DNA of 39,386 nucleotides from a virus (Duplodnaviria; Heunggongvirae; Uroviricota; Caudoviricetes): IMG/VR virus record IMGVR_UViG_642979322_000008. One strand, written 5' to 3'. Position numbers and translations under genes: made by a program. Below, piece by piece: positions 972 to 6,588 of the stretch; position 1 is the first letter of the stretch, and each line of letters starts with the position of its first letter. Below the pieces are notes generated by a model. It had not been told where the DNA came from. It made no database searches and saw only the letters and a list, made by a program, of their open reading frames with translations.

Positions 972-3062
972 ATGTATGTCATTGCAAAAGAACTGATTGG
1001 CGCGCCCGGAATGCCTGCTACAACAAAAGGTATTCGCCAGGCATTACAACGTTACGTACAAGGGAAAAGCTGTTGTTCCCGTCGTCGCTCAGGCTCTAAA
1101 GCAACTGAATACAGCATCGACTGTTTACCTGAAGTGACGCAGCAGGCATTACGTGAACGTTATGCCCTGCAACTGATGACGCAAAAAGCCGATGAATCAC
1201 CGGCTCCGGTGGTGACAAAGGCCAGACGCTCATCTGACGTGGTTGATGCGGTGGAGGCATATCGCGGATCACCACAACTGATGGTCGAACGCCTCAATGC
1301 CCTGACTGAAAACCAGCGCCAGGTGGCTGATGCACGAATCGCGATCGTCAGCGAAGTGATGAAAGTCGCGCAACAACCCGGTTTCAGCTGCGCGAAGGCT
1401 ATCCGGTTTATCGTTGACAACCTGGCACGTTCACAGCTGGACGAGCGCATTGTGGCAATGGTTGAGACGGCGAACGCCAAAAAGGGAAACAGCCGTGCGT
1501 TGAGTGAAATCACGCTGAAGCGATGGATTGCGGCCTTTAACAAGGCACAGAACGCCGCTGAACGCCTGCTTTTACTGGCACCGGGTAAACGCCAGGAAAT
1601 AAAAGCCGAAGATATTAACTGGCTGCCCGAATTTCTGGCGCAGTATCGCCAGTCAAACGGCCGACCAATGACCGAGGCTTACGAGGATTTTGTCGCTGAA
1701 TGGCAGCACCGGCACGCTGATGAGCCTTATATGCTCGATATCATGCCGTCTTATGACACCATTCGCCGCGCAATGAAGAAACTGCCGGAAGTGGTGAAAC
1801 AAAAAGGCCGGGTGACCGGCAGTGAATACCGCCAGCTTGAGGGATTCACGCGCCGCGACTGGTCCAGAATGCCGGTGAATTATGTCTGGATTGGTGACGG
1901 TCACGGCATGAAGCTGAAATGCGCACACCCGGTTCACGGTCGGCCATTTGCACCGGAAGTGACCTTTGTTATCGACGGTGGCACGCGCTTTGTGGTGGGC
2001 TGGAGCCTTGACCTGGCTGAAAATGTTTTCGCCGTAGCCGGTGCCATACAGCACGGCATTCGCCATCACGGCAAACCGTTTCTGTATTACTCGGATAACG
2101 GCTCCGGGGAAACCGCCGACATCCTGGATAAGGAGGTTGTGGGGATACTGCCGCGACTGGGGATTAATCACCCGACCGGGATTGCCGGTAATCCGCAGGG
2201 ACGAGGCATTATCGAACGGCTTAACCGCACATTACCGATGCGCATAGCCCGTAAATACCGCACCTATTTCGGGAAAGGTGCAGATCGCGAGACGTTACGC
2301 AAAACCAACCGCGATTTACGCTCGGCATTTACTGCCCTGCAACAGGGCAAACGGCTGAACGCCCGGCAGCAGTCAGCGATGCGTGATTTACCGTCCTGGT
2401 CTGAACTGATTGATGCCATTCGTGATGGTGTTGAGTGGTACAACAACCGGCCGCACGATGAATTACCGGTGAAGCCGAACGGCAAGCATTACAGCCCGGC
2501 GGAGTTCAGAAAAAAACGCCTGGCGGAAGAGGACACGGAAATTGAATGGCTGTCCGATGTGGAATTGCGGGACATGTTCCGGCCGATGGTGGAACGCCCT
2601 GTAAGACGCTGTGAAATACGCTGGCTGAATAATATTTACTACGCGCCCGAGCTGCGTGATGAGCATGGCCGCAAGGTGCTTATCAGCTATGACATTCATG
2701 ATGCCGAACGAATTACCGTACGTCGCCTGGATGGCAGCGTGATTTGCGAGGCGGTATGGGACGGTAATAAACGCGAAGCCTTCCCGGTTAGCGCGGAATA
2801 CTACAAACAGCAGCAACGCCTTAAAGGCATGCGTAAACGCGCAGAGGAAAAAATCCGTGATGCCGAGGATGAGGTTGTCAACGTGCTGGAGCACAAGCCG
2901 CAGGAGCCCTGGCTGGAAAACATCTATCGCCCGGTAGGTAATACGGTGGCCGTTCAGCAACCTGCCATTGATGATGAGCCTGATGAAGAATACGAGCGCA
3001 ATTTCCAGCGGGGATTGCAGTTGCTCGAAGCGAAATTAAAAGAAAATGACCCGCTGGCCTGA
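972..3062 (+). CDS. A: Mu-type DDE transposase A
   Basis: 696-aa ORF immediately after ner; size and position match MuA (663 aa); family assignment by recalled similarity. Confidence 0.88.
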   Translation: MYVIAKELIGAPGMPATTKGIRQALQRYVQGKSCCSRRRSGSKATEYSIDCLPEVTQQALRERYALQLMTQKADESPAPVVTKARRSSDVVDAVEAYRGSPQLMVERLNALTENQRQVADARIAIVSEVMKVAQQPGFSCAKAIRFIVDNLARSQLDERIVAMVETANAKKGNSRALSEITLKRWIAAFNKAQNAAERLLLLAPGKRQEIKAEDINWLPEFLAQYRQSNGRPMTEAYEDFVAEWQHRHADEPYMLDIMPSYDTIRRAMKKLPEVVKQKGRVTGSEYRQLEGFTRRDWSRMPVNYVWIGDGHGMKLKCAHPVHGRPFAPEVTFVIDGGTRFVVGWSLDLAENVFAVAGAIQHGIRHHGKPFLYYSDNGSGETADILDKEVVGILPRLGINHPTGIAGNPQGRGIIERLNRTLPMRIARKYRTYFGKGADRETLRKTNRDLRSAFTALQQGKRLNARQQSAMRDLPSWSELIDAIRDGVEWYNNRPHDELPVKPNGKHYSPAEFRKKRLAEEDTEIEWLSDVELRDMFRPMVERPVRRCEIRWLNNIYYAPELRDEHGRKVLISYDIHDAERITVRRLDGSVICEAVWDGNKREAFPVSAEYYKQQQRLKGMRKRAEEKIRDAEDEVVNVLEHKPQEPWLENIYRPVGNTVAVQQPAIDDEPDEEYERNFQRGLQLLEAKLKENDPLA

Positions 3063-3132: not shown

Positions 3133-4065
3133 ATGACTGATATTAACGATGTAATCAAGACCATTGATGAACTTATTGATGGCGGCGTACTGACGCAGTA
3201 TGCCATCGCCAGAGAGGCGGGAATTTCCGACGGCACATTATCGGCTTTCCGCAAGGGGAAATATAAAGGCGATAACGCCGCTGTGGCTGCTTCCCTGCGT
3301 TCCTGGTATGAGAACTGGAATAAACAAAGCGCACTGCCGGAACCGCCGCAGTTTGTGGAAACGCAGACAGTTCAGGAGCTGCGCGCACTGTTTCAGGCGG
3401 TTCGCCTGATGGGCTGTATTAACGTCATTGTGGGCGTGCCGGGGGTAGGTAAAACGGCCACCGCCCGTAATTACTGCCAGGAGCAACCAAACACCTGGAT
3501 GATCACCCTGTCACCCGCGCACTCCAGCGTCACGGAGTGTCTGCTGGAGCTGGCCGATGCGCTGGGGATTGATTACACCCGCGCGAACAAAGGGGCATTA
3601 TCCCGCGCCATCCGCCGTCGCCTGATGGGAACGCGTGGACTGGTGATTGTGGATGAGGCGGATCATCTTGGTATTGACGGTCTGGAGCAACTCCGGGCAA
3701 TTCAGGACGCCACGGGGATCGGGATGGTGCTTATTGGTAACCCGCGCGGATTGTTTAAAGGTGGACGCCGCGCCTTTGATGATTTATCGCGCCTGTTCAG
3801 CCGTCTTGCCCGTACAAAACAACTTCGCAAGGCCAAAAAGGCGGATGTGCTGGCCATTGCCAGGGCATGGGGTATCAGTGGTGAGGCCGAGCTGGCCGTC
3901 ATGCAGGCTATCGCTGAAAAGCCGGGAGCGTTACGCGTTCTGACACATACGCTTAACCAGGCGTGGCTCACCGCCAGCGGTGAAGGTGCGGCGCTGACAG
4001 AAAAACATATTAATGCGGCCTTTAAAGAGGTTTATACCAACCCTGAATTACTCTCACAGGTGTGA
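3133..4065 (+). CDS. B: Mu B-like AAA+ ATPase, transposition target-DNA activator
   Basis: 310-aa ORF after A; Walker A GVPGVGKT and Walker B VIVDEAD; N-terminal HTH-like region. Confidence 0.88.
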   Translation: MTDINDVIKTIDELIDGGVLTQYAIAREAGISDGTLSAFRKGKYKGDNAAVAASLRSWYENWNKQSALPEPPQFVETQTVQELRALFQAVRLMGCINVIVGVPGVGKTATARNYCQEQPNTWMITLSPAHSSVTECLLELADALGIDYTRANKGALSRAIRRRLMGTRGLVIVDEADHLGIDGLEQLRAIQDATGIGMVLIGNPRGLFKGGRRAFDDLSRLFSRLARTKQLRKAKKADVLAIARAWGISGEAELAVMQAIAEKPGALRVLTHTLNQAWLTASGEGAALTEKHINAAFKEVYTNPELLSQV

Positions 4066-4067
4066 TT

Positions 4068-4289
4068 ATGGCGGTATTTTATATTCCTGATATTTACGGA
4101 CGCTTTTACCTGGTTAATTTCGATAACGTGAAGGTGATTTCACTGGCCGAAAATAAAGAATGTGGCGATTTACTTTTTGAATTTAATGACCGCACACGAA
4201 TGGTGATATCTGCCGGACTTGATCGCGAAGGTGCGACAGACGTTTACAGCGGAATATGCCGTTCTGTTGGTGCGAAACAAGTCAGCTAA
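4068..4289 (+). CDS. hypothetical early protein
   Basis: ORF directly after B stop; ATG at 4068 chosen over GTG at 4062. Confidence 0.45.
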   Translation: MAVFYIPDIYGRFYLVNFDNVKVISLAENKECGDLLFEFNDRTRMVISAGLDREGATDVYSGICRSVGAKQVS

Positions 4290-4301
4290 ATGAGGTGTTA
4301 T

Positions 4302-4556
4302 ATGAATATGCAATCCTGCGGTAACAAAATGAATTTATTCGACTCCCTGAACAGCGCGCGCCGTCTGACCGAACTTGCCGGTGCGGTACTGGAACGCAGT
4401 AAGCGCTACCCACAACGTTTTGCACTGAAAACCACGCCGCCGGTAGGCAACGTGCAGGGAACCGGTGAAATTGAAATCACCATACAGACCAACGGCCTGC
4501 GCCGCCGTGTGAAGGCCACCCGCATCAGCGGCTGCACGGTTTACTGGGAGGTGTGA
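4302..4556 (+). CDS. hypothetical early protein
   Basis: ORF with GAGGTG before ATG at 4302 (track start 4290). Confidence 0.45.
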   Translation: MNMQSCGNKMNLFDSLNSARRLTELAGAVLERSKRYPQRFALKTTPPVGNVQGTGEIEITIQTNGLRRRVKATRISGCTVYWEV

Positions 4557-4557
4557 G

Positions 4558-4839
4558 GTGAAAAAAAATCTCATTGCATGGGCGTGGTCGAGTGGTCTTA
4601 TTGAGTTTGGTTACGTCCTGCCGGAAGGTGCATTGCCGATAGTTGCCGGAAAGCCTGCCACGGTACGGCATGTGATTGAGGTTATGGCGCGTCATGGACG
4701 TGATGAACAGGAGCAGTTACTGGTTCCGGGGATACCGGAAGCGGTGACGGAGGAAGAAGCCTTTAATGCCATGATTCGGTTCTGCCGTGAGGTCAGACGC
4801 CGGGTCAGTTATCCAAACAGAACGAGGACCAGAGGGTGA
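4558..4839 (+). CDS. hypothetical early protein
   Basis: GTG start preceded by GGAGG; tightly packed in early operon. Confidence 0.45.
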   Translation: MKKNLIAWAWSSGLIEFGYVLPEGALPIVAGKPATVRHVIEVMARHGRDEQEQLLVPGIPEAVTEEEAFNAMIRFCREVRRRVSYPNRTRTRG

Positions 4840-5108
4840 GTAAAGTCGTACGCATTATTTTCGAATACAAGGAGCACGTTATCCATAAAAACGCTGATGG
4901 AACAGTGCGCATGGGGGTAAGTCTGGACATACGTTCAACCGGGATAAAGCAGAAAGGTGATGGACCCGCCATGATTTTTGGGGTGGTTATGCTCGCGGAA
5001 AGCAGAGACTTTGCTGAACTTGTGGCAATGAAAGCCAGTGCGCTCATGAAAGATATGAGCATGCGTTCCGGGGTTATTAAAGGTAATGAATTTAATCAGC
5101 AGGGGTAA
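4836..5108 (+). CDS. hypothetical early protein, paralog 1 (MSKVVRIIFEYK...)
   Basis: Start overlaps upstream stop; N-terminus near-identical to the next gene. Confidence 0.5.
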   Translation: MSKVVRIIFEYKEHVIHKNADGTVRMGVSLDIRSTGIKQKGDGPAMIFGVVMLAESRDFAELVAMKASALMKDMSMRSGVIKGNEFNQQG

Positions 5109-5112
5109 TTCC

Positions 5113-5406
5113 ATGAGCAAAGTACGCGTTATTTTTGAATTTAAGCATGTTTCGCATGACGAAAAACCGGCAGGCAATGACTGTGTTGAAGTGCATGAAA
5201 AGATTGGTGTGGATGTAAAAACAGAACGTGATACGAATAACAGGCCGACGTCACTCTGTGACGTTTATGCAAGTATTCTCCAGTATCACAGCCCTGAAAT
5301 TATTCAGTTTCTCTCAGCGGAATTTCAGGCATCTGTACAGGCTTTTGGGGCGGATGCCATCATTAAACGCCACCGCGTGCATAAAGCATCAGGCACACTG
5401 CAATAA
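5113..5406 (+). CDS. hypothetical early protein, paralog 2 (MSKVRVIFEFK...)
   Basis: ATG at 5113 preceded by AGGGG; N-terminal similarity to 4836-5108. Confidence 0.5.
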   Translation: MSKVRVIFEFKHVSHDEKPAGNDCVEVHEKIGVDVKTERDTNNRPTSLCDVYASILQYHSPEIIQFLSAEFQASVQAFGADAIIKRHRVHKASGTLQ

Positions 5407-5417
5407 GGAAAAACAAA

Positions 5418-5948
5418 ATGGCAAAACGCGTTACAAAATTAAAGGCCGCAGCAGAGGCGGCACCGCAGACCCGTGAAGAGGTCAGCCGCGATATCCGCAC
5501 CCTGGGCGATATTCAGCGAGAGGCGCTGCGCCTGGAAACAGCGATGAATGATGAAGTGGCAGAAATCACCGCCCGTTATACGCCGCAGATTGAAAACCTT
5601 AAAAAAGAAATCAAAGTGCTTTTTAAGGGGATTCAGGACTGGTGCAAAACCAACCGTGATGAGCTGACGAACGGCGGCAAAACCAAAACTGCCAATCTGA
5701 CCACCGGAACGGTGTCATGGCGACTGGGGAATCCATCATGCAGCGTCAGTCGTGATGTGGAAGGTGTGATTGAAATGCTGCGCCGTATGGGCCTTGAGCG
5801 TTTTATCCGCACGAAAGAGGAAGTGAACAAGGAAGCGGTCCTGGCGGAGCCGGATGCGGTGAAAGGGATTGCCGGTATTAAGGTGAATAAAGGCGCTGAA
5901 AGTTTTTATGTCGAGCCTTTTGAACAGGACGCCGGACTGAATAAATAA
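5418..5948 (+). CDS. gam: Gam-like host-nuclease inhibitor (Ku-like DNA-end binding protein)
   Basis: 176-aa ORF; motifs RLETxMND, ANRDELTNGGKxKTANL, SWR, FIRTKxEINKEA and PFEQ match Mu Gam as recalled. Confidence 0.88.
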   Translation: MAKRVTKLKAAAEAAPQTREEVSRDIRTLGDIQREALRLETAMNDEVAEITARYTPQIENLKKEIKVLFKGIQDWCKTNRDELTNGGKTKTANLTTGTVSWRLGNPSCSVSRDVEGVIEMLRRMGLERFIRTKEEVNKEAVLAEPDAVKGIAGIKVNKGAESFYVEPFEQDAGLNK

Positions 5949-6045
5949 CACCGCATTAATCAATTAAATATCACTTCGTTTTAATTATGGCGCTCGCGTC
6001 AGGGGACTGCCTGCGCCTGTAAACTGAAAATAAGGAACAGGATAT

Positions 6046-6588
6046 ATGGCATATTTTTATTTCAAATTAGACCGTGTGCAGACAAATAAATATTTCACCA
6101 AATATCAACAGACTGTTTTACCGCTACGCAACAGTATTCTTCGGGCATTACTGAAAAATACAGGCGCTGCCGGATTGCGCTTAAAGCCGTTTGCCATGGA
6201 CGTAATCAGTGAGTTTTATTTTTCTGGTGCTCTGCCTGCGGGCTGGCGTAAGCGCGATGATGTGGCTTTTATCGGGGACGGACCGTGCTTTATTGCCAGA
6301 CCTGATGAGTCATGCCCTGAAGGTCCGGCGATTGCCGCAATGATTGAAACCGCTGAACGTGAGTTAAGAAAGCGTCCTGATTTCCTTGTCTGGCTCTGTG
6401 AAAAGCTGGGGGTAATGAGAATCCCCTCCATGTTTAACACGGACTCCTGGTGGACCCCGTCGCTCTCCCGTGATGCCCTGTGCGTGGTGTTTAAAGTAGG
6501 CGCTTATGGCAGGGAAATAAAAGGGTGTATTCCTGAAGAATGCCAGGAAATTAAACATTCTGAATATGTGGCGCTGACGGAGGAATAA
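6046..6588 (+). CDS. hypothetical early protein
   Basis: 180-aa ORF after a 97-bp AT-rich spacer; no recognised motif. Confidence 0.5.
   Translation: MAYFYFKLDRVQTNKYFTKYQQTVLPLRNSILRALLKNTGAAGLRLKPFAMDVISEFYFSGALPAGWRKRDDVAFIGDGPCFIARPDESCPEGPAIAAMIETAERELRKRPDFLVWLCEKLGVMRIPSMFNTDSWWTPSLSRDALCVVFKVGAYGREIKGCIPEECQEIKHSEYVALTEE

What the first reader, a model, noticed from the sequence alone, without database searches (positions are those of the whole stretch)
4836..5406. Tandem paralogous small genes upstream of gam
Two adjacent ~90-aa genes begin with near-identical N-termini (MSKVVRIIFEYKEH / MSKVRVIFEFKHV) then diverge, indicating local duplication and diversification next to the host-nuclease inhibitor Gam. 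Duplicated, diverging small genes in phage early regions often counter host factors.
Basis: seen in the sequence. Interest (0 to 1): 0.45.

Follow-up and report, generated by a model that had tools for sequence, protein, structure and literature searches.

The report
Two Mu gp7-like early genes
Two neighbouring small genes just before the gam gene of an E. coli Mu-like prophage are very old, highly diverged copies of the same uncharacterised phage Mu "gp7/E6" early protein; their shared beginning is the family's conserved first beta-strand, and their function is still unknown.

Summary
ORF A (4836-5108, GTG start, 90 aa) and ORF B (5113-5406, 97 aa) are real, translationally linked genes directly upstream of gam in the early operon of an E. 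coli Mu-like prophage. Their N-termini match 12/17.

The similarity is not chance, but it is not a fresh duplication either. Both belong to one small, unnamed family: 36 clusters among 1.84 billion proteins, 81-100 aa, with no Pfam, NCBIfam or PDB relative. The family includes phage Mu gp7 (E6).

The shared N-terminus is the family-wide signature strand (MAKVIFEF). Past that strand, A and B show no direct similarity. A still matches the family profile with the strand removed (14.5 bits, 0/5000 shuffles). AlphaFold gives both a long beta-hairpin plus a long helix, with no significant structural neighbours.

Every other lineage sampled has one copy. The pair is confined to the E. coli Sp18-like lineage, so A is a lineage-specific gain. 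It arose by old tandem duplication or by recombinational capture; this is unresolved.

Both genes are under purifying selection (dN/dS 0.30 and 0.36), relaxed 2-4 fold compared with their neighbours. Alleles reassort freely. The function is inferred only: dispensable early accessory proteins, probably host-factor binders. The finding is ordinary to mildly interesting.

The parts
4558..4839 (+). Upstream early gene o4558 (93 aa). It matches phrog_1518, which carries a 'host nuclease inhibitor' label. Its TGA stop overlaps the GTG start of ORF A.
   Evidence: No Pfam or NCBIfam hit. About a third of related E. coli-type loci give no match covering at least 85% of it; in one relative the gene is directly seen to be deleted except for its 3' end (L166).
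4824..4828 (+). Shine-Dalgarno-like GAGGA, 7 nt before the GTG start of ORF A.
   Evidence: Read from the sequence. The L166 relative has ATG at the same start position.
4836..5108 (+). ORF A, 90 aa: a divergent gp7-like family member (phrog_4107). Predicted beta-hairpin (residues 6-18 and 24-35) plus a long helix (44-73), with a disordered tail.
   Evidence: phrog_4107, 1.1e-61; hhalign to the single-copy relatives, E 4.8e-5 over 72 columns; AF2 pLDDT 79; shuffle tests; dN/dS 0.30.
4848..4871 (+). 24-nt copy 1 of the direct repeat, encoding the first-strand motif VRIIFEYK.
   Evidence: 83% identical to 5122-5145.
5101..5105 (+). Shine-Dalgarno-like AGGGG, 7 nt before the ATG of ORF B. It lies inside the last codons of ORF A.
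   Evidence: Read from the sequence.
5113..5406 (+). ORF B, 97 aa: a typical gp7-like family member (phrog_2230). Predicted beta-hairpin (residues 4-17 and 26-39) plus helices (48-58 and 60-77), with a disordered tail.
   Evidence: phrog_2230, 1.3e-40; hhalign to the single-copy relatives, 97.9%, E 4e-13, 75 columns; AF2 pLDDT 76; 40 bits without the first strand; dN/dS 0.36.
5122..5145 (+). 24-nt copy 2 of the direct repeat, encoding VRVIFEFK.
5418..5948 (+). gam (Mu Gam family, a Ku-like DNA-end binder). It is the downstream neighbour, not a homologue of A or B.
   Evidence: PF07352, 1.5e-41.

Best explanation
ORF A and ORF B are two anciently diverged members of one small, uncharacterised protein family of Mu-like phages of Enterobacterales. 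The family's prototype is phage Mu gp7 (formerly E6). In PHROGs it is split into phrog_2230 (B), phrog_4107 (A) and phrog_10252 (Mu gp7).

Shown:
- Both are real genes. They sit in the early polycistronic operon between kil/o4558 and gam, chained by an overlapping or closely spaced stop and start.
- The predicted fold is a long beta-hairpin followed by a long helix and a disordered tail.
- The near-identical N-termini are the family's most conserved element, the first beta-strand, kept by selection on the protein.
- Every other lineage sampled carries one copy. The extra copy A occurs only in the E. coli Sp18-like lineage and always beside B.

Inferred:
- A arose either by an old in-situ duplication of the gene in the slot before gam, followed by strong divergence, or by recombinational capture of an already diverged relative.
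- The proteins are dispensable early accessory factors. They probably work as small oligomers (dimers through the exposed hairpin edge) that bind a host protein or nucleoprotein target.
- The conserved strand and helix would form the scaffold. The faster-evolving second strand, loop and C-terminal tail would set specificity.
- Two copies would then give two specificities, not one obligate heterodimer, because A and B alleles reassort independently.
For: Real genes:
- PGAP calls exactly these two CDSs.
- Both have SD-like sequences and linked starts.
- dN/dS is 0.30 for A and 0.36 for B over 143 and 220 allele pairs.
- The region is present in 232 of 5426 complete E. coli genomes.

One family:
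- hhalign, B versus the single-copy relatives: 97.9%, E 4e-13, 75 columns.
- hhalign, A versus the same relatives: E 4.8e-5 over 72 columns.
- hhalign, Mu gp7 versus the same relatives: 91%, E 1e-6, 69 columns.
- Mu gp7 hits phrog_2230 at E 0.009.
- An HMM iterated from B alone reaches A at E about 1e-4, aligned over A residues 1-78.
- A scores 23.0 bits against a profile without any A-type sequence, and 14.5 bits with the first strand also removed. In both tests 0 of 5000 shuffles reach the score.

Fold: the AF2 models have the same strand-strand-helix order, pLDDT 79 and 76.

N-terminus as family signature: I8 and E10 are the only nearly invariant columns (alignment).

Family size: 36 clusters at E <= 1e-3 among 1.84 billion representatives.

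Copy number and context:
- Two copies in 40 of the 46 loci that carry any member.
- Single copy in Mu, L083, L084 and L098, L163 to L165, L167 and L169.
- L022 has kil, then B, then gam, without A.

Accessory character: core neighbours are 91-100% identical while A is 80-100% and B 59-100%. All allele combinations occur. dN/dS is 2-4 fold above gam, kil, o4558 and gp11, and is highest in the second strand, the loop and the tail.

Single transcript: no + strand promoter or terminator pattern between 4000 and 6200.
Against: - The two AF2 models used the same mixed alignment, so their common topology is not independent evidence.
- Direct A-to-B similarity beyond the first strand is nil (-1.1 bits; 2077 of 5000 shuffles reach it). 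Homology of the bodies therefore rests on transitive, modest scores (A to the single-copy relatives: 68% hhalign probability).
- The origin of A is unresolved.
- Oligomerisation, target binding and specificity regions are inferences with no direct test.
- No region has dN/dS above 1.
Confidence: 0.6

Rival explanations
1. One reading: a recent local tandem duplication followed by rapid, positively selected diversification, an arms race with a host factor. The shared N-terminus would be what is left of the duplication.
For: - The genes are adjacent, and a 24-nt repeat is 83% identical.
- A occurs only next to B and only in one lineage.
- A and B share MSKV-R-IFE-K, whereas most other subfamilies start MAKVI.
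- A's best outside HMM scores are to B's nearest relatives: 17.8 and 16.9 bits.
- dN/dS is raised relative to the neighbours.
Against: - Past the first strand the two are about 9% identical and show no direct signal.
- Of 11 codons for identical residues in the N-termini, 4 differ synonymously, and there are two one-codon indels, so the DNA is not recently shared.
- The motif is conserved family-wide, so it needs no duplication to explain it.
- Within each gene selection is purifying overall, and no region exceeds dN/dS 1.
- The NJ tree does not join A with B.
Confidence: 0.2
2. There was no in-situ duplication. A is an already diverged family member from another Mu-like phage, captured by recombination into the slot before B. 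The similarity of its N-terminus to B reflects shared family constraint or an old 5'-end gene conversion.
For: - Mosaicism is rampant here. A and B alleles reassort, and neighbouring cassettes differ by up to 75% between otherwise near-identical phages.
- In L166 the A allele is 55% identical overall, yet its first 13 codons and its flanks are nearly identical in DNA to the window. That indicates a recombination joint inside the conserved 5' end.
- In NJ bootstraps the gp7/P0110 group is most often the closest to A (45 of 100).
Against: - No A-type gene was found alone or in another phage lineage.
- P0110-type and Salmonella-type genes lie upstream of the o4558 homologue (L167, L084), whereas A lies downstream of it, beside B.
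- HMM scores favour B's relatives.
- Bootstrap support is weak.
Confidence: 0.2
3. A functional rival: the proteins are co-factors or regulators of the adjacent DNA-end-binding protein Gam, or of DNA-end protection in general, and are not independent host-factor binders.
For: In the window's lineage and in several relatives the family member lies immediately upstream of gam, with 9-46 nt between the genes.
Against: - In Mu, gp7 is separated from gam by two unrelated genes.
- In L164, L165, L167 and L169 the downstream slot holds DUF3164 instead of gam.
- Most of the roughly 160 Gam-encoding Mu-like loci collected here carry no family member.
- A and B are near neutral in charge, counted from the sequence, so they are not DNA mimics.
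Confidence: 0.1
4. The N-terminal resemblance is chance, or an mRNA-level feature (an AT-rich translation-initiation region), and the two ORFs are unrelated.
For: Direct BLASTP similarity is confined to 17 residues. The motif's codons are AT-rich.
Against: - Profile and shuffle statistics.
- Similarity to the family persists with the first strand removed.
- Synonymous positions vary while the residues are kept.
- Both have the same predicted secondary-structure order.
Confidence: 0.04

Closest known systems
Phage Mu gp7 (formerly E6; AAF01086.1, AF083977 4784-5047), an uncharacterised early protein
   Same: - Similar size: 87 aa against 90 and 97 aa.
- Lies in the early operon downstream of kil and upstream of gam.
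- Has the N-terminal strand MAKVIIEIK, then a second strand, a loop and a hydrophobic helix start in the same order.
- Profile links: E 1e-6 to the single-copy relatives, E 0.009 to phrog_2230, E 1.5e-18 to the full family HMM (that HMM includes three gp7-type sequences, so this score is partly by construction).
   Different: - Only 15-19% identical, with no significant BLASTP or tblastn hit to A or B.
- One copy per genome.
- Separated from gam by gp8 and gp9.
- Ends in a C-terminal His, which A and B lack.
- No function is known, so it gives no mechanism.
PHROG families phrog_2230, phrog_4107 and phrog_10252 (all 'unknown function')
   Same: B is a full-length member of phrog_2230 (1.3e-40), A of phrog_4107 (1.1e-61) and Mu gp7 of phrog_10252 (8.2e-57).
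   Different: PHROGs keeps them as three separate families. The results here join them into one superfamily of 36 clusters at 50% identity.
Single-copy gp7-like genes of Kluyvera, Salmonella, Citrobacter, Edwardsiella and other E. coli Mu-like prophages (P0063, P0064, P0094, P0095, P0119-P0125, L083)
   Same: Same family, size and slot between kil/o4558 and gam or DUF3164. B's nearest relatives are the 'MSNK' group, which shares its hairpin-turn insertion (60 bits).
   Different: They occur singly. Only the E. coli Sp18-like lineage has the A+B pair.
Mu Gam (PF07352), the host-nuclease inhibitor named in the finding
   Same: Neighbour in the same early operon.
   Different: No sequence relationship. 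A and B give no Pfam hit at E <= 1. The family also occurs next to DUF3164 instead of gam.

Membership tests
Mu gp7/E6-like small early protein family (phrog_2230, phrog_4107, phrog_10252; no Pfam entry) | Significant profile similarity over most of the length to family members from other lineages | tested here: met
   B: hhalign 97.9%, E 4e-13, 75 columns; 40 bits without the first strand. A: E 4.8e-5 over 72 columns but only 68% probability; 23.0 bits in full and 14.5 bits without the first strand, with 0 of 5000 shuffles reaching either. B is met firmly; A is met more weakly.
Mu gp7/E6-like small early protein family | N-terminal signature strand M-[AS]-K-V-[IV]-[IF]-E-[FIL], starting at residue 1 | tested here: met
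   A is MSKVVRIIFEY and B is MSKVRVIFEF. I8 and E10 are the only nearly invariant family columns.
Mu gp7/E6-like small early protein family | Size of 81-100 aa, with a strand-strand-helix order and a disordered tail | tested here: met
   A is 90 aa and B is 97 aa. AF2 elements: A E6-18, E24-35, H44-73; B E4-17, E26-39, H48-77. The two models share one alignment and are not independent.
Mu gp7/E6-like small early protein family | Location in the early operon of a Mu-type transposable phage, downstream of kil and upstream of gam or DUF3164 | tested here: met
   The window order is A transposase, B ATPase, o4062, kil-like, o4558, A, B, gam. The same slot is used in L163 to L167.
Mu gp7/E6-like small early protein family | C-terminal His, present in most members | tested here: not met
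   A ends ...NQQG and B ends ...GTLQ. The feature is frequent but not universal (P0064, P0071 and P0122 also lack it), so it is not taken as defining.
Recent tandem duplicates | Pairwise similarity detectable along the whole length, and low synonymous divergence | tested here: not met
   BLASTP aligns only 17 residues. A residues 18-90 against the B family score -1.1 bits. Of 11 identical-residue codons in the shared motif, 4 differ synonymously.
Gam / Ku-like host-nuclease inhibitors (PF07352) | Match to the Phage_Mu_Gam profile | tested here: not met
   No Pfam hit at E <= 1 for A or B.
Known anti-defence proteins (anti-CRISPR, anti-RM, anti-Gabija and others) | Sequence or fold match to a characterised inhibitor | tested here: not met
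   No PDB sequence hit. The fold searches of PDB and BFVD gave nothing significant. No dedicated anti-defence HMM library was available, so this test is partial.

The most novel reading that the evidence does not exclude
The A/B pair is a lineage-specific split of a normally homo-oligomeric gp7-like protein into two specificities, or into a heterodimer. In this reading it neutralises a host defence that is triggered by, or acts alongside, the DNA-end binder encoded immediately downstream. Mu Gam has been reported to license Gabija targeting (PMC12407980). The gp7 family would then be a new class of anti-defence proteins of transposable phages.
Probability: 0.07. Interest if true: 0.6.

Novelty: new member of a known kind. 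Interest (0 to 1): 0.25.

Why it matters
The practical gain is modest. Three PHROG families of unknown function, and the orphan Mu gene gp7 (E6), are joined into one small family with a predicted beta-hairpin-plus-helix fold and a fixed slot in the Mu early 'semi-essential' region. One E. coli lineage, present in about 4% of complete genomes and including O157:H7 strains, carries two diverged copies.

That gives a defined and cheap experimental handle on a Mu early gene that has had no phenotype for decades: delete A, B or both, and pull down their partners. If the proteins proved to be host-defence antagonists, it would add a family to the anti-defence catalogue. Nothing here shows that yet.

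Tried and rejected
- **Direct searches.** tblastn of A and B against 50,697 phage records found only two Stx-phage records carrying the same Mu-like insert, and not Mu itself. BLASTP of Mu gp7 against A and B gave nothing significant.
- **Iteration from A.** Iterative HMM search from A alone did not spread beyond A-type sequences.
- **Domain and defence libraries.** Pfam, NCBIfam and PADLOC gave no hits for A, B or seven other family members. A PDB sequence search with the family profile gave a best E of 0.27.
- **RNA and transcription signals.** Rfam found nothing in the whole window. The promoter and terminator scan found no + strand signals inside 4000-6200.
- **Literature.** Four look-ups (three searches, one paper read) found no study of Mu gp7/E6 or of this family.
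- **More loci.** The search for related loci with the MSNK-group alignment failed because it has no conserved stretch to search with.
- **Second tandem pair.** A pair of small ORFs upstream of gam in a distant Mu-like contig (L047), and a single one in L082, looked similar by eye but were not significant by hhalign.
- **Tree.** The NJ bootstrap tree could not resolve the origin of A.
- **DNA mimicry.** Rejected, because both proteins are near neutral in charge (counted from the sequence).
- **Obligate co-evolving heterodimer.** Disfavoured, because A and B alleles occur in all combinations.

Full report
**What the window is.** The region lies in the early operon of a Mu-type transposable prophage of E. 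coli. The gene order is:
- transposase A (972-3062) and the MuB-like ATPase (3133-4065);
- two small ORFs (4062-4289, phrog_3375; 4302-4556, Kil-like phrog_2679);
- o4558 (4558-4839, phrog_1518);
- the two ORFs of the finding;
- gam (5418-5948, PF07352, E 1.5e-41);
- homologues of Mu gp11 and gp12.

The same 863-bp stretch occurs in 232 of 5426 complete E. coli genomes, mostly at 99% identity or more and often in O157:H7. It also occurs in two Stx-phage records, where it is annotated as an inserted Mu-like phage.

**The observation.** ORF A is 4836-5108, 90 aa. Its GTG start overlaps the TGA stop of o4558 as GTGA, and a GAGGA lies 7 nt upstream. ORF B is 5113-5406, 97 aa, with AGGGG 7 nt upstream, and its stop is 11 nt before the gam ATG. 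PGAP annotates exactly these CDSs as hypothetical proteins.

The N-termini MSKVVRIIFEYKEHVIH and MSKVRVIFEFKHVSH are 12/17 identical (BLASTP E 9e-4 for the pair). Nothing else aligns by BLASTP. At DNA level the motif is a 24-nt direct repeat that is 83% identical.

**Both are real genes.** Across 19 and 23 distinct nucleotide alleles from related loci, the median dN/dS is 0.30 for A and 0.36 for B. This shows purifying selection in the + frame. No + strand promoter or terminator pattern interrupts 4000-6200, and Rfam finds nothing. This is consistent with one polycistronic early transcript and translational linkage.

**The two proteins are related, but only through a wider family.**
- Direct profile-profile comparison of the A and B families gives E 3e-6 to 9e-6, covering only 33-46 columns.
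- I collected 160 Gam-encoding loci from IMG/VR and from one genome per GTDB species. I then ran an HMM iteration from B alone over their 3605 + strand ORFs.
- B first picked up a single-copy gene upstream of gam in Edwardsiella (E 4e-5). It then picked up the A family at E about 1e-4, aligned over A residues 1-78, and then Kluyvera and Enterobacteriaceae genes. Mu gp7 was just below threshold, at E 0.02 over its full length.
- A mixed-profile search of the 5.8-billion-protein collection added Kluyvera-, Salmonella-, Citrobacter- and Mu gp7-type proteins and a 55%-identical A variant.
- Sub-family profiles then gave: B against the single-copy group 97.9%, E 4e-13, 75 columns; Mu gp7 against that group 91%, E 1e-6, 69 columns; A against that group 68%, E 4.8e-5, 72 columns.

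- Against a family profile containing no A-type sequence, A scores 23.0 bits. The best of 5000 shuffles reaches 14.3.
- With the first 17 residues and the matching profile columns removed, A still scores 14.5 bits. The best shuffle reaches 10.1, and 0 of 5000 reach A's score.
- Against the B family alone, A residues 18-90 score -1.1 bits, which is no signal.

So the similarity is not limited to the first residues. Beyond them, however, it is visible only against the family, not between A and B themselves.

**The family.** An exhaustive HMMER scan of 1.84 billion representatives found only 36 clusters at E <= 1e-3. Almost all are 81-100 aa; the exceptions are a few shorter fragments and one repetitive 710-aa match that is probably spurious. 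Members start M-[AS]-K-V-I-F-E-F, often have G-P-[HQ]-D before the helix, and usually end in His.

The only nearly invariant columns are I8 and E10 of the first strand. The 'near-identical N-termini' are therefore the family signature. Of the 11 codons for identical residues in the A and B motifs, 4 differ at synonymous sites. The motif is kept by selection on the peptide, not by recent DNA exchange.

The family has no Pfam, NCBIfam, PADLOC or PDB relative. PHROGs splits it into phrog_2230 (B), phrog_4107 (A) and phrog_10252 (Mu gp7), all of unknown function.

**Structure.** AlphaFold2 with the mixed family alignment gives:
- A: pLDDT 79, strands 6-18 and 24-35, helix 44-73, disordered tail.
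- B: pLDDT 76, strands 4-17 and 26-39, helices 48-58 and 60-77, disordered tail.

**Copy number and origin.** Of 46 loci with any family member, 40 have two copies, all of the E. coli Sp18-like type. One copy is found in:
- Mu, where the order is gp7, gp8, gp9, gam;
- Edwardsiella, Kluyvera and an Enterobacteriaceae genome;
- L163 (kil, P0119, gam), and L164/L165 (kil, o4558-like, P0120, DUF3164);
- L167 (kil, P0110, o4558-like, DUF3164) and L169 (P0131, DUF3164).

L022 has kil, B, gam without A. L166 has kil, a 55%-identical A, B, gam. A was never found without B. A is thus a lineage-specific addition in the slot just before B.

How it arose is not resolved. Outside its own family, A's best sub-family HMM scores are to B's nearest relatives (17.8 and 16.9 bits). 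It also shares the MS- start and the slot downstream of o4558, which favours an old in-situ duplication. Against that, an NJ tree puts A nearest the gp7/P0110 group (45 of 100 bootstraps). Recombination is clearly frequent here, which keeps capture of a diverged relative open.

**Variation.** Among the E. coli-type loci, MuB, kil, o4558, gam and gp11 are 91-100% identical to the window. A ranges from 80 to 100%. B ranges from 59 to 100%, in two allele classes. All A/B allele combinations occur: L007 has A 99 and B 59; L011 has A 81 and B 60; L013 has A 81 and B 94.

dN/dS of A and B is 2-4 times that of the neighbours (gam 0.09, kil 0.09, o4558 0.12, gp11 0.16, o4062 0.19). It is highest in the second strand, the loop and the C-terminal tail (0.6-0.95) and lowest in the helix (0.13-0.32). 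It never exceeds 1. This fits accessory genes under relaxed or partly diversifying selection. It does not demonstrate an arms race.

**Function.** No member has a known function, and the literature look-ups found nothing on Mu gp7/E6. Established Mu biology, stated from my own knowledge, is that the region between B and the end of the early transcript is dispensable in the laboratory and encodes host-directed functions (kil, gam, gemA).

From that, and from the small size, the early expression, the patchy distribution, the allele shuffling and the predicted oligomer-prone fold, the most likely role is a dispensable early accessory protein that binds a host target. The two copies would provide two specificities. 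I put this at roughly 35-40%.

A dedicated partnership with Gam is less likely. Mu separates gp7 from gam by two genes, four loci have DUF3164 in gam's place, and most of the Gam-encoding loci collected here lack the family.

**Verdict.** The pair is an old, lineage-specific doubling of an uncharacterised Mu gp7-like gene, and the shared N-terminus is simply the conserved family motif. The finding is a new member or arrangement of a known but unstudied kind, of low to moderate interest.

Noticed in passing
window 4558-4839 (+); L164 2732-3004; L167 452-706; L084 just after 3232: o4558 (93 aa; conserved AYAWASGLIEFG...LPEGALPI...LLVPGIPEA) carries a 'host nuclease inhibitor' label in phrog_1518 and in one RefSeq record, but it has no Pfam or NCBIfam match. 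The label looks like annotation transfer from the nearby gam. About 13 E. coli-type loci give no match covering at least 85% of it. It can lie on either side of the gp7-like gene.
   Followed up: partly
L164 3303-3941; L165 3303-3941; L167 719-1336; L169 484-1110: In several Mu-like contigs a DUF3164 (PF11363) protein of 205-212 aa occupies exactly the slot that gam holds in the window, directly downstream of the gp7-like gene or the o4558-like gene. It may be a functional alternative to Gam.
   Followed up: no
window 6046-6588 (+): The gene after gam (phrog_2260, 180 aa) is replaced by alleles only about 25% identical in loci whose gam and gp11 are at least 92% identical to the window. The related locus L163 has a DUF5420 protein in this slot. 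This is a sharply bounded variable cassette.
   Followed up: no
family alignment; e.g. L098 3452-3454, L163 3289-3294, L002 5042-5047: Most gp7-like proteins end in a C-terminal His after a variable, predicted-disordered tail. The codon is CAT or CAC and the stop is TAA or TGA, so it is conserved at protein level. Window A (...NQQG) and B (...GTLQ) lack it.
   Followed up: partly
L047 3515-3730 and 3730-3960; L082 3709-3960: A distant Mu-like contig (Gam 59% identical) has its own tandem pair of small ORFs (MSKIVIELKD... and MAKQVITITLDD...) directly upstream of gam, and L082 has one such ORF. They resemble the family by eye, but hhalign to the family profile is not significant (E 9e-4 over 16 columns; 0.034; 0.18).
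   Followed up: partly
L166 2960-3060 versus window 4795-4880: A 55%-identical A allele (P0079) has its first 13 codons and its upstream flank nearly identical in DNA to the window, then diverges. This suggests a recombination joint inside the conserved 5' end of the gene. In that locus o4558 is deleted except for its 3' end.
   Followed up: partly
window 4062-4289 (+): The small ORF after the MuB-like gene (phrog_3375) is also variable among otherwise near-identical prophages (73-100% identity; dN/dS 0.19).
   Followed up: no
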